The notes below the pieces were generated by a model. That model was given only the letters and a program-made list of their open reading frames with translations. It made no database searches and was not told the DNA's origin. A stretch of DNA of 64,000 nucleotides from Escherichia phage ELT1, in the sequence record MZ892903.1. One strand, 5' to 3'. Positions 4,475-60,585 of this stretch are shown here, in pieces; position 1 is the first letter of the stretch; each line of letters begins with the position of its first letter. Position numbers and translations under genes: made by a program.

Positions 4475-6040
4475 ATGACTATCAAAACTAAAGCTGAACT
4501 TTTGAACAAATGGAAGCCATTACTGGAAGGTGAAGGTTTACCGGAAATTGCTAATAGCAAACAAGCGATTATCGCTAAAATCTTTGAAAACCAGGAAAAA
4601 GATTTCCAGACAGCTCCGGAATATAAAGACGAAAAAATTGCTCAGGCATTCGGTTCTTTCTTAACAGAAGCTGAAATCGGTGGTGACCACGGTTACAATG
4701 CTACCAACATCGCCGCAGGTCAGACTTCTGGCGCAGTAACTCAGATTGGCCCAGCTGTTATGGGTATGGTACGTCGTGCTATTCCTAACCTGATTGCTTT
4801 CGATATTTGTGGTGTTCAGCCAATGAACAGCCCGACTGGCCAGGTATTCGCGCTGCGCGCAGTATATGGTAAAGATCCAATCGCTTCCGGCGCTAAAGAA
4901 GCATTCCACCCAATGTATGGTCCAGATGCAATGTTCTCTGGTCAGGGTGCTGCTAAGAAATTCGCTGCTTTGAAAGCAAGTGATACTCTTGAAGTCGGAA
5001 CTATTTACACTCACTTCTTCCAGGAAACTGGTACAGTATATCTGCAAGCTACAGCAGCTAAACAAATTGGTTCAGGCGCATCTGACGCAGACAAATTAGA
5101 TGCTGAAATTAAGAAACAAATGGAAGCTGGTGTACTGGTAGAAATCGCTGAAGGTATGGCTACTTCTATCGCTGAACTTCAGGAAGGTTTCAACGGTTCT
5201 ACCGATAACCCATGGAATGAAATGGGCTTCCGTATCGATAAACAAGTTATCGAAGCTAAATCTCGTCAGCTGAAAGCTGCTTACTCTATTGAATTAGCAC
5301 AAGACCTCCGCGCTGTTCATGGTATGGATGCTGATGCTGAACTGTCTGGTATTCTGGCTACAGAAATTATGCTGGAAATCAACCGCGAAGTTGTTGATTG
5401 GATTAACTACTCCGCTCAGGTTGGTAAATCTGGTATGACCCTGACTCCGGGTTCTAAAGCTGGTGTATTTGACTTCCAGGACCCAATCGATATTCGTGGT
5501 GCTCGCTGGGCAGGTGAATCCTTTAAAGCTCTGTTGTTCCAGATTGACAAAGAAGCAGTTGAAATTGCTCGTCAGACTGGTCGCGGCGAAGGTAACTTCA
5601 TTATCGCTTCCCGTAACGTAGTTAACGTTCTGGCTTCAGTTGATACCGGCATTTCTTATGCTGCACAGGGTCTGGCTACCGGCTTTAACACTGATACTAC
5701 CAAGTCAGTATTTGCTGGTGTTCTGGGTGGTAAATACCGTGTATATATCGACCAGTATGCTAAACAGGATTATTTCACTGTAGGTTATAAAGGTCCGAAC
5801 GAAATGGATGCTGGTATTTACTATGCTCCATATGTAGCTCTGACTCCGCTGCGTGGTTCCGATCCGAAGAACTTCCAACCAGTAATGGGATTCAAAACTC
5901 GTTACGGTATCGGTATCAACCCATTTGCAGAATCCGCTGCTCAGGCTCCGGCTTCTCGCATCCAGAGCGGTATGCCTTCTATTCTGAATAGCCTTGGTAA
6001 AAACGCTTACTTTAGACGTGTATATGTTAAAGGTATCTAA
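4475..6040 (+). CDS. 23: Major capsid protein gp23
   Basis: 521-aa ORF; N-terminus MTIKTKAELLNKWKPLLEGEG matches T4 gp23 as recalled. Confidence 0.98.
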   Translation: MTIKTKAELLNKWKPLLEGEGLPEIANSKQAIIAKIFENQEKDFQTAPEYKDEKIAQAFGSFLTEAEIGGDHGYNATNIAAGQTSGAVTQIGPAVMGMVRRAIPNLIAFDICGVQPMNSPTGQVFALRAVYGKDPIASGAKEAFHPMYGPDAMFSGQGAAKKFAALKASDTLEVGTIYTHFFQETGTVYLQATAAKQIGSGASDADKLDAEIKKQMEAGVLVEIAEGMATSIAELQEGFNGSTDNPWNEMGFRIDKQVIEAKSRQLKAAYSIELAQDLRAVHGMDADAELSGILATEIMLEINREVVDWINYSAQVGKSGMTLTPGSKAGVFDFQDPIDIRGARWAGESFKALLFQIDKEAVEIARQTGRGEGNFIIASRNVVNVLASVDTGISYAAQGLATGFNTDTTKSVFAGVLGGKYRVYIDQYAKQDYFTVGYKGPNEMDAGIYYAPYVALTPLRGSDPKNFQPVMGFKTRYGIGINPFAESAAQAPASRIQSGMPSILNSLGKNAYFRRVYVKGI

Positions 6041-22286: not shown

Positions 22287-24383
22287 TTATCCTTGAACGA
22301 ACTTGTAAGGCATGTTTGCAATATCTATGCAAGATGCAATAATTCCAAGAGATGATTCTACTTTTTGTTTAACATTTGATGAAACAAATGATGCAAAGTC
22401 AACTCTGTCTTCTATTTCAATATCACCTGTCATTGCAACTACTTCACCAGTTTCCATTAGACGGTCACCGTCATAAATGACTGATTCGGTGAGTTCTTCC
22501 GTAGTCATAACTTCAGCTTGAATGAGTTTTGTATTATTAGATGTTGTTCCGTCATTATTAGAAGCATCAGTTATTTTATTAACTTTGACCATCAATCCAC
22601 GTGGTAGAATAACTTCAGCTTCTGTTGCTATTCCGAGACTTCCTGGATATACAACATTAACTTTATGAGCTCCATCAATTGCCCATCCTATTTGAACTTT
22701 AACGTATTCAGGATTTTCTTTATACGCTCTTATTTCGTTTGGATTAATAGTTATTCCTTCTTCATTTTTATCAACTGTCAATTCATTACGAGCTTCTGGT
22801 TCTAAAAGACCGATACCAGCATGTGTAATTCCAAAACGTCCAAAAATGATAGGAGTTAAAGAAGTAGATACAAAATTTCTGAAATAGAACACTTTATTTT
22901 TAACTAGCGCTTCGTATATAGGAGCAGTCATACTTTGAGCACGATAAACTGTAATGCCTTCTGGTATACGGTCACCATTTTCAAAAGCTGAATCTAAATT
23001 ATTTATCGCAGATTCAATTTCTTTTTCACTCATTACATCATATCGTGCTGGATTGTAGCGGCCTAAAAGAAGATTATTGATGTCAGTATATCCTGAACCG
23101 CAATATTCTCTAATGCCACGCTTTTGTGATGGAGTATATTTAGAACCATCGCGGGCAATAGTAATATCAATCATTGGACCAGCACCAATTCCAGAAAAGC
23201 TATAAATCATTCGTTTGAGGAATTTAGTTTTTGCTGCATTCCAGGCATTTTTAGTTATTTCTCCCCAGACTTCATCTGATTGCCCTTTACGAGTTTTATT
23301 ATGTTTATCAAGCCAAGTATCTTTATATTCTTCAAAGAATTTATTAATAGCTGCTGCATACTTCTCTAAACATTTTATTGAAGTAGTTGGTTCATTTTTA
23401 ATCGCATTAAGAATTACATCTTTAATTTTTTCAGAAACTTCACCAACCTCACTCATTGGAAAGAATTTATAGTCATAATGAAGTTCATCTGCAGTTCCTT
23501 CAGCAATAATTTTTGCTGCCTTAGTTTTAGAAGCTAATGAATTAATTCCAAGCTTCATTTCTTCTGCTTCGGGAATTAAAGGAGCTGTAGCAGGTTTATT
23601 GAAATTAGCTGCGGTAGATTCATATTTCTGGAATAATTCGCTTTCATTACGATAAGATTCTAACGATTGACTTGCCGCAATTGCTCTACGTGAAATTTTA
23701 ACTTTAACGATTACAGCTTGGTCAGAACGTTTATCATTTTCTTGCGCAATAGATGCTGCAATTGCCTCATTTTTAGTTACTTGAGCTCCAGTATCTTTAT
23801 TGATATAAACATCACCGACCTTCGATTCAACCTTAGTAAAGAGCTCGGTACTAATTTCCGGAACTCCTGGAATGTCTTCTAGTGATACATTTTTGCGATG
23901 TATAAGAATATATGCATACTTTTTATCATAATCCCAGAGTTCCTTAAGAAGGACGTATCTGCCACCTGAACGACTACGGATAAGTCTATCAGCAATAACT
24001 TGAATTTGTCGAGCTTGACCAGCGGTTTTAGACTTAAGAATACGAAGCATACAAGCATCAATTTTATACTGACGCATCGTTTGCATTGCAACAGTAAAAA
24101 CCGAATTGATATAATTAATTGGGCTTGGACCAAGACCTTTCAATTTAGCAATTGAACCTTTAGCGGTTAATGTAAAAGGAACAATATGCATCATTTTATC
24201 GCCCATCTTTAAATCACGATTAGTATCACCTCCAGATGTATAGGTACATAAACGAAAGCCCGGTTGTTCAATTGCATCATCAACATGAACTGAAAAAATT
24301 TGCGGTATTTTCTTCTTTGGATTTAAGTTTGTAATTGGAAGAGTAGTATCTTCGTCAAATAATTCTGTAATTAGTTCCATCAT
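22287..24383 (-). CDS. alt: Alt ADP-ribosyltransferase (virion-packaged)
   Basis: 698-aa ORF; N-terminus MMELITELFDE and overall sequence match T4 Alt as recalled (T4 about 682 aa). Confidence 0.9.
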   Translation of the reverse strand: MMELITELFDEDTTLPITNLNPKKKIPQIFSVHVDDAIEQPGFRLCTYTSGGDTNRDLKMGDKMMHIVPFTLTAKGSIAKLKGLGPSPINYINSVFTVAMQTMRQYKIDACMLRILKSKTAGQARQIQVIADRLIRSRSGGRYVLLKELWDYDKKYAYILIHRKNVSLEDIPGVPEISTELFTKVESKVGDVYINKDTGAQVTKNEAIAASIAQENDKRSDQAVIVKVKISRRAIAASQSLESYRNESELFQKYESTAANFNKPATAPLIPEAEEMKLGINSLASKTKAAKIIAEGTADELHYDYKFFPMSEVGEVSEKIKDVILNAIKNEPTTSIKCLEKYAAAINKFFEEYKDTWLDKHNKTRKGQSDEVWGEITKNAWNAAKTKFLKRMIYSFSGIGAGPMIDITIARDGSKYTPSQKRGIREYCGSGYTDINNLLLGRYNPARYDVMSEKEIESAINNLDSAFENGDRIPEGITVYRAQSMTAPIYEALVKNKVFYFRNFVSTSLTPIIFGRFGITHAGIGLLEPEARNELTVDKNEEGITINPNEIRAYKENPEYVKVQIGWAIDGAHKVNVVYPGSLGIATEAEVILPRGLMVKVNKITDASNNDGTTSNNTKLIQAEVMTTEELTESVIYDGDRLMETGEVVAMTGDIEIEDRVDFASFVSSNVKQKVESSLGIIASCIDIANMPYKFVQG

Positions 24384-24431: not shown

Positions 24432-24620
24432 TTAATAATCTAATGGTAAGAGAGTACGATATATTTCAAACTTTGGCCCTTTTTCATAGGCATCAAATGT
24501 TTCTGTAAATTTATTATAAGCGTATGCATCTACAAATTCGAGAATGACTTGTGATACAGAAGTAGAAACATCTCCACCTTCTTTTTGAGCAATGACAATT
24601 GTTTCTAAGTAAGCTTTCAT
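24432..24620 (-). CDS. Hypothetical protein
   Basis: 62-aa ORF; start overlaps DNA ligase stop. Confidence 0.5.
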   Translation of the reverse strand: MKAYLETIVIAQKEGGDVSTSVSQVILEFVDAYAYNKFTETFDAYEKGPKFEIYRTLLPLDY

Positions 24621-26080
24621 AGACCAGTTACCTCATGAAAATCACCAAATACATCCTCGAACGTATTAGCTTTAGTTTTATCTTCGCGTAAACGAATCGC
24701 AATCGGAAGAAATAATTTAACGTAATCAGTGCGGCCATCAGATTTTAACCAACCGTTGCATTCGCACTCTAGAATTTTTCCAATATAATAATTTTGGTTT
24801 TCCATAATGCGAGTACGGTCAAGTTCATGCGATTTTACACCGGCTTTATCTTTTAAGCCTGAACCAGCATTTACCTTAATTTTTCCACACTCTGACTCAA
24901 GAATAAATCCACCTGCTTTAGTAGGGTCTTTACGGTGAGGATAAATTCCTACAATTTTTAAATCAACATCAATTACTTCTTTAAATTTATAAAGATTTTT
25001 TGAACGGGCATTTTCCCATAACCCATCAACGTTTTTGAGAATAATACCTTCAAGACCTTGGTCAATATACTTTTTATAAATTACCTTGGCTTCGTCTAGG
25101 TTATTTACTACCTGGTTTTCAATTAAAATTACTTTATCATATCCTGATGTCATTTGTTCTAGTTTAGAAAAACGTACATCATATTTTAAACGAAACGTCG
25201 GAAGACCGTATATTTCTACCAACGGAACATAATCCCAGACCTGAAACTTCATGCATTGAGCTTCTTTTTCAGAAATGGTTCCCTTTAAAGATTTATTAGC
25301 GATTCCATTAGAAGTAGTACGTGATTCAGCTACTTCGGCGAATTCTTTGGCTTTACTAATTTCAGGATAAGCATCAAAAAGAAAATCTAGGCCTTCTGGC
25401 TCCTTTTTAACTTGCTCATGGTATACCAATTCGCCATCAATTAACACGCCTTCTGGATGAATCTGGCGGGCTTCTGCAGTCATTTTGATTAATTCTTCCT
25501 TAAGAAGATCTAATCCTAGATATTCATTACCGGCTCGTGATAAAAGACGAACATCATCTAATTCATCACCTCTGACTTCGGCAAAGCACCGAGCCCCATC
25601 AGCTTTTAACTGGGCAAAGGCTGGAAACTTGATATTCTTACTAATGCCTTTTTCATCATAAGAACTTGCCAGCATTTGAGGTTGTTCAGGAATTAAACCT
25701 GGCCAAACTTTGTTTGCAATAGATACTGAAGCACCGCATTCAAGGTCTCGCATCATCACCCGACGCAAAACTTCAACATCATCTTTTTTACCATCGGTGA
25801 TATATCCAGTTAATTCCTCAATTGCTGCATTTCCAGTCAATTTCCGAGTAGCTAATGTGAATTCAATGAAGTCAAGCATATCGGTAAGAGTCAACATTCC
25901 AAAACTCTGGGTAGCAATACCAGGTTTAGGCCATTTCTTGATATAATACTGCAGCCCACGAGAATAAGTCAGACGATATACTCGTTTAAGCAATTCATTA
26001 TCTTTATTCTTTTCAAGAATTGCTTGCTTCTGCTTAGTTGAACCAATAGATGCTATTTCGTTCAGAATTTTAAGAATCAT
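24617..26080 (-). CDS. 30: ATP-dependent DNA ligase
   Basis: 487-aa ORF; KxDG adenylation motif (LKADGARC); length matches T4 DNA ligase. Confidence 0.95.
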   Translation of the reverse strand: MILKILNEIASIGSTKQKQAILEKNKDNELLKRVYRLTYSRGLQYYIKKWPKPGIATQSFGMLTLTDMLDFIEFTLATRKLTGNAAIEELTGYITDGKKDDVEVLRRVMMRDLECGASVSIANKVWPGLIPEQPQMLASSYDEKGISKNIKFPAFAQLKADGARCFAEVRGDELDDVRLLSRAGNEYLGLDLLKEELIKMTAEARQIHPEGVLIDGELVYHEQVKKEPEGLDFLFDAYPEISKAKEFAEVAESRTTSNGIANKSLKGTISEKEAQCMKFQVWDYVPLVEIYGLPTFRLKYDVRFSKLEQMTSGYDKVILIENQVVNNLDEAKVIYKKYIDQGLEGIILKNVDGLWENARSKNLYKFKEVIDVDLKIVGIYPHRKDPTKAGGFILESECGKIKVNAGSGLKDKAGVKSHELDRTRIMENQNYYIGKILECECNGWLKSDGRTDYVKLFLPIAIRLREDKTKANTFEDVFGDFHEVTGL

Positions 26081-26346
26081 TGTTCATCCTTCAGAGTTTG
26101 GTTTACAGCTCTATTATAAATCAATTCATCATTAAGCTCAGTCAAAGACTTATGATATGTGGTTCTAACTTTATTTCCTTGCATCCAGTGCTTGATATAA
26201 ATGAAACCTTGCTCTACGCATTTTTTAAAAATTCGTTCGTCTTTTTGAGCTCGGAATTCTGGATTGCATCTAAAAAATTGATTTACGTGACCGTAATCAC
26301 GTGTAGTATTACCTTCATTTTCATAAATAGTGTGAACAACAAACAT
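26077..26346 (-). CDS. Hypothetical protein (30.1 position)
   Basis: 89-aa ORF, overlaps neighbours by 4 nt. Confidence 0.5.
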   Translation of the reverse strand: MFVVHTIYENEGNTTRDYGHVNQFFRCNPEFRAQKDERIFKKCVEQGFIYIKHWMQGNKVRTTYHKSLTELNDELIYNRAVNQTLKDEQ

Positions 26347-27185
26347 TAGAATGCTCCTTGGAAAATATTATCACCACAAGTAGGTCTATTATACAAATAC
26401 TCTATACCGCCGGGTTTAATATAGTTCCATGTCTGAAACGGATGTGTCTGATATGGATGATATAGATGATTATAAGGATTTAATCCAGGCGTTCTCCAGG
26501 TAGTGTTCCAAGGAAAAGAATCGTTTTTAACCATCTTCTCAATTAAATCTTTTATAGCTTTTTCACTATCAAAACTTTCTTTATTTTCCTTCGGCGAAAA
26601 AAGCTTATTTTCTACATCATTCCATGTATAAACTCGCTGCGCAGTTTTTGGAATACTGTCACGTTCCCCTCGAGCCATCCAATAAACTGGAACATTTAAT
26701 ATTTCACTCGCATGATCGCAGTGATGAGCGAGATCGTCAATATAACAAATTACGTTATATTTCTCTTTTGCCTTTTTGAACAGCTCTTCTTTTGAAGAAT
26801 CATGACCACACATCATTACTTCTGAGAAGGCACCAGGAAAAAGAGCATTCAAATTAAATTGACGATTCAACAGAGCGTCAATAGAATCACCCAGTGCTGT
26901 AACAGCTACAAAATTATAATCTTCTTTTAATTTGTTAATTACACACAGAGCATCTTTATATGGAGACAAGTAACGAATAAAATCTGAACGATTGTATTTT
27001 TCAATTAACTTGACACCAAGTTCTTCATCACAATTAAAGAGTTTACCTGGAGAAATAAATTTCTCATCTTGGATCATTTTTAAAATATGTTCTAATGGAA
27101 GATTATATTTCTGAGCAAAATAAGGAAGACCTGATTGCCAGCTTAAACATACTCCATCAATATCAGTTAAAATAGTAGGCTTCAT
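26346..27185 (-). CDS. HAD-superfamily hydrolase-like protein (30.2 position)
   Basis: 279-aa ORF with N-terminal DxDGV motif (LTDIDGV), typical of HAD phosphatase motif I. Confidence 0.6.
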   Translation of the reverse strand: MKPTILTDIDGVCLSWQSGLPYFAQKYNLPLEHILKMIQDEKFISPGKLFNCDEELGVKLIEKYNRSDFIRYLSPYKDALCVINKLKEDYNFVAVTALGDSIDALLNRQFNLNALFPGAFSEVMMCGHDSSKEELFKKAKEKYNVICYIDDLAHHCDHASEILNVPVYWMARGERDSIPKTAQRVYTWNDVENKLFSPKENKESFDSEKAIKDLIEKMVKNDSFPWNTTWRTPGLNPYNHLYHPYQTHPFQTWNYIKPGGIEYLYNRPTCGDNIFQGAF

Positions 27186-27646
27186 AGAGAGTCTCTTAAT
27201 AGGTTTAACACATCAATAAATTCAGCTTCGGTTAGTATTGTATCATCTTTTGTTAGACCACTAGCCATGCTGTGCTTCAAAACTTTTCCTTTCGAGGCTT
27301 GTAATGCATCACGAAAGCCCTTGTTTTGAATCGCTGCTTCAAAATATGCATTTGTGTATAATTCTTTCCACGCCGGGGAGTATCTTGAAAACGGAACTCC
27401 AAGCCAGAAGAGGGTCCCACGGTCCTGAGCTCTAGCATAAGACCTTCCAGCTTGTTGAGCGGCAAGCCCGGATAACCCAAATATACGACGTTGTTGTTCA
27501 ACATTTTTCACCTTGCACCCTTGGAGGAATCCTTCAAGACCTCCAAATTGAATACCATCCATAACGAAAGGCCATTGGGCGAAATTACTTAATGCACATG
27601 ATGGCCACCTAAAATTGCTTCTAATCTCTAACTCAGACATTTTCAA
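27182..27646 (-). CDS. NADAR/YbiA-like (DUF1768-type) protein (30.3 position)
   Basis: 154-aa ORF with LSNF...E..LQ..K pattern resembling the NADAR family; assignment from motif recall, not a search. Confidence 0.55.
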   Translation of the reverse strand: MKMSELEIRSNFRWPSCALSNFAQWPFVMDGIQFGGLEGFLQGCKVKNVEQQRRIFGLSGLAAQQAGRSYARAQDRGTLFWLGVPFSRYSPAWKELYTNAYFEAAIQNKGFRDALQASKGKVLKHSMASGLTKDDTILTEAEFIDVLNLLRDSL

Positions 27647-27839
27647 TGCTTATAATTTCAACATCAGCCCAATGACCATAGCAAGGAAGACGAAATTCAA
27701 CTGGCCAGTTAGGGTCCTTTTCTAATATAATAGACTCAACTCGTGGTTCTTCATGTTCATCAGTATATGGATTTTTATCCGTTACTTTATATGTGACCTT
27801 AATGTACTGAATTCCAAAAATCTTATTAATTATATTCAT
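27633..27839 (-). CDS. Hypothetical protein
   Basis: 68-aa ORF in operon context. Confidence 0.45.
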   Translation of the reverse strand: MNIINKIFGIQYIKVTYKVTDKNPYTDEHEEPRVESIILEKDPNWPVEFRLPCYGHWADVEIISIENV

Positions 27840-28793: not shown

Positions 28794-29126
28794 TTATTTT
28801 ACTACTTTCCAGTGCTGCATGTCAAGTTTACCAACTTTTTTCATCTTCTCAATTAAGCGTTCGGCACGTTGGCGCGCTGTAACATAATACCATTCACCTA
28901 ATTCATTTTGTTCAATTTTTCCAACGATTACTGTATTCAATTCATAAATCCAACCAGTAAAGAAATTATGAACTTGAATTGTAAAGGTGAAATCTGTTCC
29001 CATACCTTCTGTTGTTTCCACTTCAATAATATCACCTTCAACTGCCATTAAGAACCACATAGTTTCATCATATTTACCATTGAAACATTTAGTTTTAACT
29101 GTAGCGTTCAGATTAATCGTTTTCAT
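28794..29126 (-). CDS. Hypothetical protein
   Basis: 110-aa ORF. Confidence 0.55.
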   Translation of the reverse strand: MKTINLNATVKTKCFNGKYDETMWFLMAVEGDIIEVETTEGMGTDFTFTIQVHNFFTGWIYELNTVIVGKIEQNELGEWYYVTARQRAERLIEKMKKVGKLDMQHWKVVK

Positions 29127-29212
29127 TTTATTCTCCTTTGTTTGTGTAAGATAATACTATCACAAAGGAACCATACTGTAAACAACTTTGTGCAATCTTT
29201 GGAAAATAAAAA

Positions 29213-29232
29213 AGGACTCCCGAAGGAGTCCT
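29213..29232. terminator. Stem-loop aggactcc-cgaa-ggagtcct
   Basis: 8-bp perfect stem just downstream of the small basic ORF. Confidence 0.5.
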
Positions 29233-29236
29233 CAAC

Positions 29237-59790: not shown

Positions 59791-60585
59791 ATGGCAGTAA
59801 CAGGACCGTGGGTAGGATCGTCTGCAGTAGTTAATACAGGACAAAATTGGATGGGTGGCGCGGCCCAACGATTAAGAATGGGCATTCCGTTCTGGATGAG
59901 TAATATGATAGGTCGATCTGTTGAAGTAATTCATACACTTGGAGCAGACCATAACTTTAATGGTCAATGGTTCCGAGATAGATGTTTTGAGGCAGGTAGT
60001 GCACCTATAGTGTTTAATATCACAGGAAATTTGGTATCATATTCTAGAGATGTTCCTTTATTCTTCATGTATGGAGATACACCAAATGAATATGTTCAGT
60101 TGAATATTAGCGGTGGAGCTCATATGTGGGGCAGAGGTGGACAAGGTGGATGGACTCATTCTGGTGGAGATGGTAATGGTCAACAGGGTGGACATTGTAT
60201 TCAAAATGACATTGGTGGTCGATTAAGAATTAATAATGGTGGAGTAATTTGTGGCGGTGGTGGCGGTGGTGGCGGTATCGCTTATCGTCCTCACTCTGGC
60301 GCAAGGTGGCAAGATATTGGTGGCGGTGGAGGAAGACCATTTGGCCCAGGAGGAGGCGGAGGTTATTCCGGTGGCGCAGCTTCTTATGATGGCCCAGGAG
60401 GTGGTTATAATTATGGTAATGCTCACTCTGGCCAGGGTGGTGATGCTGGCGCAAATGGACAAAATGCCTGGCATGATGGCGGTAAAGTTCTAAAAGTTGG
60501 AGCTGGTGGCGCTGCCGGATATGCTGTTATAGGATCAGCTCCAACATGGCAAAATGTTGGAGCAATATATGGTCCAAGAGTATAA
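59791..60585 (+). CDS. 38: gp38 receptor-recognising adhesin (T2/T6-type, glycine-rich motifs)
   Basis: 264 aa from ATG at 59791 with GGAGG ribosome-binding site; conserved N-terminal gp37-attachment region followed by poly-Gly motifs separating variable segments. Confidence 0.85.
60254..60277 (+). repeat. GGY-codon microsatellite (ggcggtggt)n inside gene 38
   Basis: 24 bp of perfect GGC/GGT triplet repeats encoding GGGGGGGG. Confidence 0.8.

What the first reader, a model, noticed from the sequence alone, without database searches (positions are those of the whole stretch)
26346..27646. Adjacent HAD-like hydrolase and NADAR-like ORFs downstream of DNA ligase: candidate counter-defence or nucleotide-salvage pair
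The 279-aa ORF has a DxDGV HAD-phosphatase motif at its N-terminus. The overlapping 154-aa ORF has an LSNF...E..LQ pattern that recalls the NADAR (YbiA/DUF1768) fold. NADAR enzymes are reported to reverse ADP-ribosylation of guanine bases installed by DarT-type toxins, so a phage copy may act as an anti-defence factor. The pair is translationally coupled by a 4-nt overlap.
Basis: inference. Interest (0 to 1): 0.45.

Follow-up and report, generated by a model that had tools for sequence, protein, structure and literature searches.

The report
T4 adfN NADAR plus uncharacterised HAD phosphatase
These are genes 30.3 and 30.2 of a T4-type phage: 30.3 is the already published anti-DarTG1 enzyme AdfN, and 30.2 is a conserved but uncharacterised nucleotidase-like phosphatase that published data show is not needed for that counter-defence.

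Summary
The window is a Tequatrovirus (T4-like) genome.

**30.3 (27182-27640, minus strand).** It starts at an ATG and is 152 aa, not 154. It is 151/152 identical to T4 gp30.3, which is AdfN, a NADAR-family DNA ADP-ribosylglycohydrolase. AdfN has been shown experimentally to be necessary and sufficient for T-even phages to escape DarTG1. In my own tests the fold matches only NADAR structures, and E36, K43 and the phage-type H123 are all present.

**The "pair".** The two genes are not a functional module:
- T4 transposon data show 30.2 is dispensable on DarTG1 (log2FC -0.12, against -7.25 for 30.3).
- AdfN works alone when supplied in trans.
- Most gp30.3-like NADARs have no such HAD nearby.
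- The HAD's conserved neighbour is the DNA ligase gene (71 of 77 loci).

Interest is low, because the main claim is known biology.

The parts
27182..27640 (-). Gene 30.3 = adfN: a 152-aa NADAR-family DNA (guanine) ADP-ribosylglycohydrolase. It starts at an ATG; the TTG at 27646 listed by the ORF finder is probably not used.
27533..27535 (-). Codon for E36, a catalytic glutamate of AdfN.
   Evidence: Invariant in alignment A2. E36A abolishes the rescue of RB69 on DarTG1. Position checked.
27512..27514 (-). Codon for K43, a catalytic lysine of AdfN.
   Evidence: Conserved in at least 90% of A2. K43A is inactive. Position checked.
27272..27274 (-). Codon for H123, the histidine in the last strand that marks the phage (gp30.3) NADAR subfamily. 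It stands where YbiA-type NADARs have Glu and DarT1-linked NADARs have Asp.
   Evidence: Invariant in A2. Lies in the predicted strand 120-123. The subfamily rule is stated in PMC11125620 and PMC11543638.
27182..27229 (-). Codons for the C-terminal helix of AdfN (about residues 138-152) plus the stop codon. This helix is lost in the inactive RB69 allele and is intact here.
   Evidence: Helix 138-151 in the model. The RB69 frameshift removes the last 15 residues and correlates with DarTG1 sensitivity. The ORF here is full length.
26346..27185 (-). Gene 30.2: a 279-aa HAD-superfamily phosphatase, uncharacterised and NT5C-like.
26601..27185 (-). HAD catalytic domain with a helical C1 cap (residues 1-195). 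Motif I is D8xD10, motif II T96, motif III K132, motif IV D150-D151. The loop W16-Q-S-G-L follows motif I.
26349..26600 (-). Lineage-specific C-terminal tail of gp30.2 (residues 196-279). It has one predicted helix (207-220) and is otherwise predicted disordered. It is rich in W, P, Y and N and contains the motif GIEYLYNRPT.
   Evidence: pLDDT mostly below 55. The tail is absent from most family members, which are about 200 aa. The motif recurs in some homologues and occurs nowhere else in the window.
27182..27185 (-). ATGA overlap of the 30.3 stop codon and the 30.2 start codon.
   Evidence: Read directly from the sequence.
27633..27640 (-). ATGTCTGA overlap of the 30.3 start codon with the 30.4 stop codon. 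There is no clear Shine-Dalgarno sequence, so translation of 30.3 probably depends on coupling to 30.4.
   Evidence: Sequence read. T4 insertions in 30.4 are also depleted on DarTG1 (log2FC -1.79, adjusted p 0.014), which is consistent with a polar effect.
27277..27504 (-). 30.3', a 75-aa ORF in another frame inside adfN. It is annotated in T4 and its status is unproven.
   Evidence: It stays open in 11 of 12 close relatives but not in distant ones.
26077..26346 (-). Gene 30.1 (DUF3045). It lies between 30.2 and the ligase gene and is listed here as context.
   Evidence: Pfam PF11243, E=4e-64.
24617..26080 (-). Gene 30, the ATP-dependent DNA ligase. It is the most conserved neighbour of the HAD gene and is listed here as context.
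   Evidence: Pfam PF01068. The ligase lies downstream of the HAD in 71 of 77 viral loci.

Best explanation
The region holds two consecutive early genes of a T4-type phage that do different jobs. Gene 30.3 is adfN. Its product is a small NADAR-fold glycohydrolase that cuts the N-glycosidic bond between ADP-ribose and the N2 amino group of guanine in phage DNA. This undoes the modification made by the host toxin DarT1, so replication can proceed in cells that carry the DarTG1 defence system. That function is shown experimentally for the T4 protein, which differs from this copy at one residue outside the catalytic positions, and is inferred here by near-identity. Gene 30.2 encodes a Mg2+-dependent HAD phosphatase whose capped active site is of the type that acts on small molecules. 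It belongs to a large, mainly phage-borne family that is a distant branch of the NT5C 5'(3')-deoxyribonucleotidases, so its most likely reaction is removal of the phosphate from a (deoxy)nucleoside monophosphate (inferred, about 50%). A disordered C-terminal tail, found only in the T4 lineage, may serve as a docking peptide (speculative). The two genes are co-transcribed and overlap because the whole 30.7-to-30 gene string is packed that way, not because they form a functional unit.
Against: The AdfN function is taken from the T4 orthologue; nothing was measured for this exact allele, which carries M125 where T4 has I125. No substrate has been tested for gp30.2. The window protein itself does not reach any Pfam threshold, and the link to NT5C rests on profile and fold similarity at 13-21% identity. 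HAD substrate specificity is hard to predict from sequence. The transposon screens covered only a few conditions, and redundancy with host or other phage phosphatases could hide a role for 30.2. In KVP40 a different, NT5C-type HAD sits directly after the NADAR, which hints that the association may not be purely accidental.
Confidence: 0.85

Rival explanations
1. The two genes form a two-step counter-defence or salvage module. The NADAR would release ADP-ribose from DNA, and the HAD would dephosphorylate a downstream phosphorylated product, for example ADP-ribose-1''-phosphate, ribose-5-phosphate or AMP produced after Nudix cleavage, to detoxify or recycle it.
For: The 4-nt start/stop overlap, and strict adjacency in every close T-even relative (13 of 13 complete loci with at least 84% NADAR identity). 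Adjacent or near-adjacent HAD and NADAR genes in some distant Straboviridae (L024, Acj61). KVP40 has an independent NT5C-type HAD overlapping the end of its NADAR gene. The Schizotequatrovirus 30.2-like HAD lies next to the NAD-salvage gene nadV.
Against: T4 30.2 insertions are neutral on DarTG1 (log2FC -0.12, p=0.61), while 30.3 insertions are lost. AdfN alone, expressed from a plasmid, fully restores RB69 plating. Most NADAR loci lack the HAD, and about half of the HAD loci lack a NADAR. Free ADP-ribose is not a phosphomonoester, so it is not a direct HAD substrate.
Confidence: 0.07
2. gp30.2 is a polynucleotide 3'-phosphatase that cleans nicked or broken DNA ends for the neighbouring DNA ligase, an end-healing and sealing pair like Pnkp plus ligase.
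For: The ligase gene lies just downstream on the same strand in 71 of 77 HAD loci across Straboviridae. There is a weak PHROG hit to polynucleotide kinase (E=0.003). Several BFVD fold matches are PNK-type phosphatases.
Against: The model has a helical cap of about 80 residues inserted after motif I (helices between residues 16 and 86). From general knowledge of HAD enzymes, this cap type goes with small-molecule substrates, whereas Pnkp-type phosphatases have no cap. The sequence and profile links are to nucleotidases, not to Pnkp. T4 already encodes PseT. Conserved synteny next to a core gene is common in T4-like genomes and need not reflect function.
Confidence: 0.1
3. gp30.2 is a HAD phosphatase for a non-nucleotide metabolite, such as a sugar phosphate, phosphoglycolate or a cofactor precursor.
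Against: The only significant sequence-level links are to NT5C and deoxyribonucleotidase-like proteins. The specificity loop after motif I resembles that of deoxyribonucleotidases. Distant members have nucleotide-metabolism neighbours.
Confidence: 0.2
4. The main physiological substrate of gp30.3 is not ADP-ribosylated DNA. It would instead be a soluble ADP-ribose-derived signal or a riboflavin-pathway intermediate, as proposed for phage NADARs and for YbiA before 2023.
Against: There is direct genetic and biochemical evidence for DNA de-ADP-ribosylation and for a DarTG1-specific requirement. The failure to rescue uninfected cells is explained in that work by a preference for hydroxymethylcytosine-containing phage DNA.
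Confidence: 0.04

Closest known systems
AdfN (anti-DarT factor NADAR) = gp30.3 of Escherichia phage T4 (Pfam PF08010 Phage_30_3)
   Same: 151 of 152 residues are identical, with the same length and the same genomic position between 30.4 and 30.2. E36, K43 and H123 and the C-terminal helix are all present.
   Different: One conservative substitution (M125 here, I125 in T4). Activity of this allele has not been measured.
DarG1 / DarT1-associated NADAR antitoxins (BC4488 subfamily; e.g. Geobacter lovleyi NADAR 8bat, E. coli C7 NADAR)
   Different: An orphan gene in a phage with no toxin partner. It has His instead of Asp at the third catalytic position, it is shorter, and the T4 protein does not protect uninfected cells from DarT1.
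E. coli YbiA (2b3w) and Phytophthora NADAR (8bau), the YbiA subfamily of NADAR (Pfam PF08719)
   Different: 19-21% identity, with Glu rather than His in the last strand. YbiA is linked to riboflavin-intermediate N-glycosidase activity and to SOS-operon contexts.
NT5C family 5'(3')-deoxyribonucleotidases (Pfam PF06941; human mdN and cdN; Staphylococcus 3bwv)
   Same: A HAD core with a helical C1 cap and motifs DxDGV / T / K / DD. An aromatic-(Q/E)-S-G loop follows motif I. There are profile-level and fold-level matches.
   Different: The window protein does not reach the Pfam threshold, and identity is only 15-21%. There is an extra 84-residue tail. No substrate is known. The family is essentially phage-borne, is syntenic with the ligase gene, and has no Pfam entry of its own (PHROG 420, function unknown).
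Phosphatase domain of T4 polynucleotide kinase/phosphatase (PseT)
   Same: The HAD DxD chemistry, the same phage, and a position near a nucleic-acid ligase gene. There is a weak PHROG hit.
   Different: From general knowledge, PseT's phosphatase has no cap and acts on polynucleotide ends. gp30.2 has a large cap, and its better matches are to nucleotidases.

Membership tests
NADAR superfamily, phage gp30.3 / AdfN subfamily | NADAR alpha+beta fold | tested here: met
NADAR superfamily, phage gp30.3 / AdfN subfamily | Catalytic Glu and Lys in the E-G-F-x-Q-x-x-K segment (E36 and K43 in T4 AdfN) | tested here: met
   E36 and K43 are present. E36 is invariant and K43 is conserved in at least 90% of 44 homologues. 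Their necessity is shown.
NADAR superfamily, phage gp30.3 / AdfN subfamily | Histidine in the last beta-strand, where YbiA-type NADARs have Glu and DarT1-linked NADARs have Asp | tested here: met
   H123 is invariant and lies in strand 120-123.
NADAR superfamily, phage gp30.3 / AdfN subfamily | Match to Pfam PF08010 above the curated cut-off | tested here: met
   235.3 bits against a cut-off of 36.
NADAR superfamily, phage gp30.3 / AdfN subfamily | Intact C-terminal helix (its loss in RB69 inactivates the protein) | tested here: met
   Full-length 152 aa, with helix 138-151.
NADAR superfamily, phage gp30.3 / AdfN subfamily | Guanine-ADP-ribose hydrolase activity and protection of the phage from DarTG1 | not testable with these tools
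   Shown for the T4 protein, which differs at one residue, and inferred here by identity.
HAD superfamily phosphatases | Rossmannoid HAD core fold | tested here: met
HAD superfamily phosphatases | Motifs I (DxD), II (T/S), III (K/R) and IV (DD) | tested here: met
   D8, D10 and K132 are invariant; T96, D150 and D151 are conserved in at least 90% of A1. D8, D10 and K132 remain invariant in the wider A3.
HAD superfamily phosphatases | Mg2+-dependent phosphoryl-transfer activity | not testable with these tools
NT5C 5'(3')-deoxyribonucleotidase family (PF06941) | Match to the Pfam model above the curated cut-off | tested here: not met
   The window protein has no NT5C hit even at E<=1. Only 5 of 48 close members and 16 of 44 distant members match, with a best E-value of 4.7e-9.
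NT5C 5'(3')-deoxyribonucleotidase family (PF06941) | Profile-level and structural relatedness to solved deoxyribonucleotidases | tested here: met
NT5C 5'(3')-deoxyribonucleotidase family (PF06941) | Aromatic residue eight positions after the nucleophile Asp, in a D-F-E-S-G-like loop. From memory of the mdN structures this residue stacks on the base. | tested here: inconclusive
   W16-Q-S-G-L aligns with F-E-S-G-L of 2jao, and W16 is conserved in at least 90% of A3. The role of this residue is recalled from the literature and was not tested here.
NT5C 5'(3')-deoxyribonucleotidase family (PF06941) | dNMP phosphatase activity | not testable with these tools
   No biochemical data exist for any member of the gp30.2 family in the libraries searched.

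The most novel reading that the evidence does not exclude
gp30.2 is not a housekeeping nucleotidase. Instead it would be a second, independent counter-measure encoded beside adfN: a phosphatase that destroys or depletes a phosphorylated small molecule used by an untested host defence, for example a nucleotide-derived signal or an NAD-pathway intermediate. Its T4-specific disordered tail would dock it onto a host or phage partner. The recurrence of a HAD next to the NADAR in KVP40, the nadV neighbour in Schizotequatroviruses, and a distant family member sitting among acb1 and gad2 anti-defence genes would then be meaningful.
Probability: 0.1. Interest if true: 0.55.

Novelty: already known. Interest (0 to 1): 0.15.

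Why it matters
The headline idea, that a phage NADAR reverses DarT-type guanine ADP-ribosylation as an anti-defence factor, is correct. It was published in 2023-2025 for exactly this gene, so the finding adds nothing new there. What remains open is gp30.2. It is a phosphatase conserved in about 1,400 sequenced T4-like phages and in more than 1,300 sequence clusters, and it is almost always next to the DNA ligase gene. It has no Pfam family, no assigned function, and no phenotype in any of the published T4 screen conditions I examined. Identifying its substrate would fill a gap in the otherwise well-mapped nucleotide metabolism of T4, but nothing here suggests an unusual mechanism.

Tried and rejected
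- **Single-sequence searches for gp30.2.** Pfam and NCBIfam gave only noise (thiamin pyrophosphokinase, E 0.02-0.17). phmmer against PDB sequences was not significant. Only family profiles and fold comparison resolved the protein.
- **Foldseek against afdb50.** The library was not available, so BFVD was used instead, and it added little.
- **Promoter and terminator scan of 24-30 kb.** The number of sites was no higher than in shuffled sequence (23 against 20.3). The one good promoter-like site (28825..28796, minus strand) and one terminator-like hairpin (29233..29212) are noted but carry no weight.
- **Literature searches for 'gp30.2' and 'gene 30.2'.** They found nothing, and a broader phage/HAD/deoxyribonucleotidase search gave nothing specific.
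- **The NARP3 paper.** I tried to check it for a HAD or phosphatase link, but the query was malformed and I did not repeat it.
- **A shared docking motif.** I looked for the tail motif of gp30.2 (EYLYNRPT) in other proteins of the window. It is unique to gp30.2.
- **Horizontal origin of adfN.** Its GC content is 42.3% against 36.2% for the window. That is only the 95th percentile of same-size windows (z 1.75), which is too weak to build on.
- **The TTG start at 27646.** Rejected in favour of the ATG at 27640.

Full report
**What is there.** The window is a Tequatrovirus (T4-type) genome. The 2-kb stretch around the finding is 99.3% identical to Salmonella phage SG1 and Escherichia phage JEP6, and 494 phage records cover at least 80% of it. 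All the genes concerned lie on the minus strand, in the same order as in T4: alt (22287-24383), alt.1, gene 30 DNA ligase (24617-26080), 30.1 (26077-26346, DUF3045), 30.2 (26346-27185), 30.3 (27182-27640), 30.4, 30.5, 30.6 and so on.

They hold up. The 279-aa ORF begins MKPTILTDIDGV. The neighbouring ORF contains ALSNF...LEGFLQ. The two overlap by ATGA at 27182-27185. Three corrections are needed:
- The second ORF most likely starts at the ATG at 27640 (152 aa) rather than the TTG at 27646 (154 aa). This is the T4 annotation, and it is the numbering under which the published catalytic residues fall on E36 and K43.
- The genes are transcriptionally upstream of the ligase gene, with 30.1 in between.
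- Start/stop overlaps link the whole chain from 30.4 to gene 30, so the 4-nt overlap says nothing specific about this pair.

**Gene 30.3 is adfN.** The protein is 151/152 identical to T4 gp30.3 and matches Pfam PF08010 (Phage_30_3) at 2e-70. I tested the NADAR assignment independently:
- An AlphaFold2 model built on 44 homologues has mean pLDDT 93.5.
- The family profile finds YbiA by sequence at E=0.009 across the SNF...E..Q.K core.
- E36 is invariant, and K43 is conserved in at least 90% of sequences.
- H123, the histidine that marks phage NADARs where YbiA-type enzymes have Glu and DarT1-linked ones have Asp, is invariant.
- The C-terminal helix, whose loss through a frameshift inactivates the RB69 allele, is intact.

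**The function of 30.3 is published.** Schuller et al. 2023 (PMC11543638) established NADARs as guanine-ADP-ribose hydrolases and as the antitoxins of DarT1. A 2024 Toxins paper (PMC11125620) showed that T4 gp30.3 hydrolyses guanine-ADPr but not thymine-ADPr in vitro. Johannesman, Carlson and LeRoux 2024 (PMC11257639) mapped DarTG1 resistance to gene 30.3 by phage crosses and renamed the gene adfN. They showed that:
- deleting adfN makes T4 and T2 about 10^4-fold sensitive to DarTG1;
- ectopic AdfN fully rescues RB69;
- E36A and K43A abolish the effect;
- purified AdfN removes ADP-ribose from DNA.

The HIDEN-SEQ preprint (10.1101/2025.11.20.689424) confirms this independently. Insertions in 30.3 are neutral on K-12 but are lost on DarTG1 (mean reads 261.0 to 0.7, log2FC -7.25, adjusted p 0).

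**Gene 30.2 is a real HAD phosphatase of unknown substrate.** Single-sequence searches fail: there is no Pfam or NCBIfam family, and PHROG 420 is labelled 'unknown function'. The evidence for the fold is as follows:
- The family is large: 100 close clusters, 1,439 phage records by tblastn, and 1,334 representatives at 50% identity by profile search.
- A model built on 48 homologues has pLDDT above 90 over residues 1-195.
- The four HAD motifs are conserved. D8, D10 and K132 are invariant even among members with 22-35% identity, and T96, D150 and D151 are nearly so.

**What kind of HAD it is.** The helices between residues 16 and 86 form a C1-type cap inserted after motif I. From general knowledge of HAD enzymes, this goes with small-molecule substrates. 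The nearest named family is NT5C, the 5'(3')-deoxyribonucleotidases:
- A profile that includes distant members matches 3bwv over its full length at E=1.4e-5 and human mdN at 0.01.
- 16 of 44 distant members match Pfam NT5C.
- hhalign to an NT5C-type phage protein gives 81% probability.
- The loop after motif I (DGVxxxW-Q-S-G-L) aligns with DGVLADF-E-S-G-L of a solved deoxyribonucleotidase.
- Three distant members were inspected. One lies directly after the ribonucleotide reductase genes with thymidylate synthase nearby. One lies near dCMP deaminase. One lies among the acb1 and gad2 anti-defence genes.

The window protein itself does not reach the NT5C Pfam threshold. I therefore describe it as NT5C-like rather than as a member of that family. 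I put about 50% on a (deoxy)nucleoside-monophosphate substrate.

**The C-terminal tail.** Residues 196-279 form a tail that most family members lack. Apart from one helix it is predicted to be disordered. It carries a short motif (GIEYLYNRPT) that is shared with some relatives and occurs nowhere else in the window. Its role is unexplained.

**Are the two genes a functional pair?** Four lines of evidence say no.
- In the T4 transposon data, 30.2 (71 sites) is unaffected by DarTG1 (271.5 to 249.8, log2FC -0.12, p 0.61), by DarTG2 (0.00) and by minimal medium (-0.10). It is fully dispensable on K-12, with 72 of 72 sites hit. Insertions in 30.2 lie downstream of 30.3, so they cannot be masked by polarity on adfN.
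- AdfN alone, supplied in trans, restores RB69 plating on DarTG1.
- Among 80 viral contigs carrying a gp30.3-like NADAR, every close T-even relative has 30.2 immediately downstream. Of roughly 66 distant ones (below 50% identity), only six have a 30.2-type HAD within 4 kb. Krischvirus Phi1, Klebsiella phage Roth68, Aeromonas phage AS-gz and phages outside the Straboviridae carry the NADAR alone.
- Starting instead from the HAD, 71 of 77 loci have the gene-30 ligase just downstream on the same strand, usually separated only by 30.1. Only 36 have a NADAR within 4 kb.

The HAD therefore belongs to a conserved 30.2-(30.1)-30 block, and adfN is an accessory gene placed next to that block in some lineages.

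**Two observations that keep a small door open.** In KVP40 a different, clearly NT5C-type HAD (Pfam E=5e-11) overlaps the end of the NADAR gene. The 30.2-like HAD of that phage group sits beside nadV.

**Rivals for gp30.2.** A DNA 3'-phosphatase that serves the ligase would fit the synteny and a weak hit to polynucleotide kinase. It does not fit the capped architecture or the nucleotidase-like profile matches. A non-nucleotide substrate cannot be excluded, because HAD specificity is hard to read from sequence.

**Verdict.** The central claim is already known biology. The only open item is the substrate and role of gp30.2, a widespread phage phosphatase that is unnamed but conventional in its mechanism. 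Interest is low.

Noticed in passing
window 27182-27640 (homologues P0104, P0106, P0107, P0113, P0116, P0151): Public T4-like genomes contain several broken adfN alleles. These include N-terminal truncations that lack ALSNF or E36/K43 (126 aa and 109 aa, the latter in phage SV76), a C-terminal truncation (89 aa), a frameshift that fuses the 30.3' frame to the 30.3 C-terminus (vB_Eco_NR1), and a deletion that fuses the N-terminus of 30.8 to the C-terminal part of 30.3 (RPN226). Like the RB69 allele, this suggests adfN is lost repeatedly in nature.
   Followed up: partly
window 27277-27504 (-): The 75-aa ORF 30.3', in another frame inside adfN, is annotated in T4 as an internal translation product. 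It stays open (76 codons) in 11 of 12 close relatives, including the group with 86% protein identity, but not in distant homologues. Whether it is expressed is unknown.
   Followed up: partly
window 27633-27839 (-) (gene 30.4) and its 8-nt overlap with adfN at 27633-27640: In the published T4 HIDEN-SEQ table, insertions in 30.4 are also significantly depleted on DarTG1 (log2FC -1.79, adjusted p 0.014). adfN has no obvious Shine-Dalgarno sequence and its ATG overlaps the 30.4 stop codon (ATGTCTGA), so this looks like translational coupling or polarity rather than a second factor.
   Followed up: no
L002 (Vibrio phage KVP40) 5449-5961: KVP40.0071, the gene that overlaps the 3' end of KVP40's 30.3 NADAR gene, is a different HAD. 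It clearly matches Pfam NT5C (E=5e-11) and matches the gp30.2 profile only marginally (E about 0.003-0.006).
   Followed up: partly
L007 (Vibrio phage TCU-VP03-AIR1) 20001-20573: The true gp30.2-like HAD of this Schizotequatrovirus (E=1e-35 to the family profile) lies divergently next to nicotinamide phosphoribosyltransferase (NadV) and beside radical-SAM genes. It is not next to a NADAR or a T4-type ligase.
   Followed up: no
window 27182-27640 compared with the rest of the window: adfN has 42.3% G+C, against 36.2% for the window and 33.7% for 30.2. That is the 95th percentile of same-size windows (z 1.75). It is mildly consistent with the published idea that the gene was acquired from a bacterial NADAR, but it is weak evidence.
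   Followed up: partly
L169 (metagenomic contig, gene at 5001-5588): A distant member of the gp30.2 HAD family (P0300) sits in a phage gene string that also encodes Acb1 (anti-CBASS) and Gad2 (anti-Gabija) homologues and a metallophosphatase. That is an accessory, anti-defence-rich neighbourhood.
   Followed up: no
window 22287-24383 (-): The Alt ADP-ribosyltransferase gene (698 aa) lies about 3 kb from adfN. The same early region therefore encodes both a writer of ADP-ribose, acting on host proteins, and an eraser, acting on phage DNA. Comparative genomics has already noted this arrangement for T4-like phages (PMC9503650).
   Followed up: no
window 60106-60564: This is the stretch with the highest G+C in the window (51%). 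It was not examined. In T4-like genomes such peaks are often tRNA genes.
   Followed up: no
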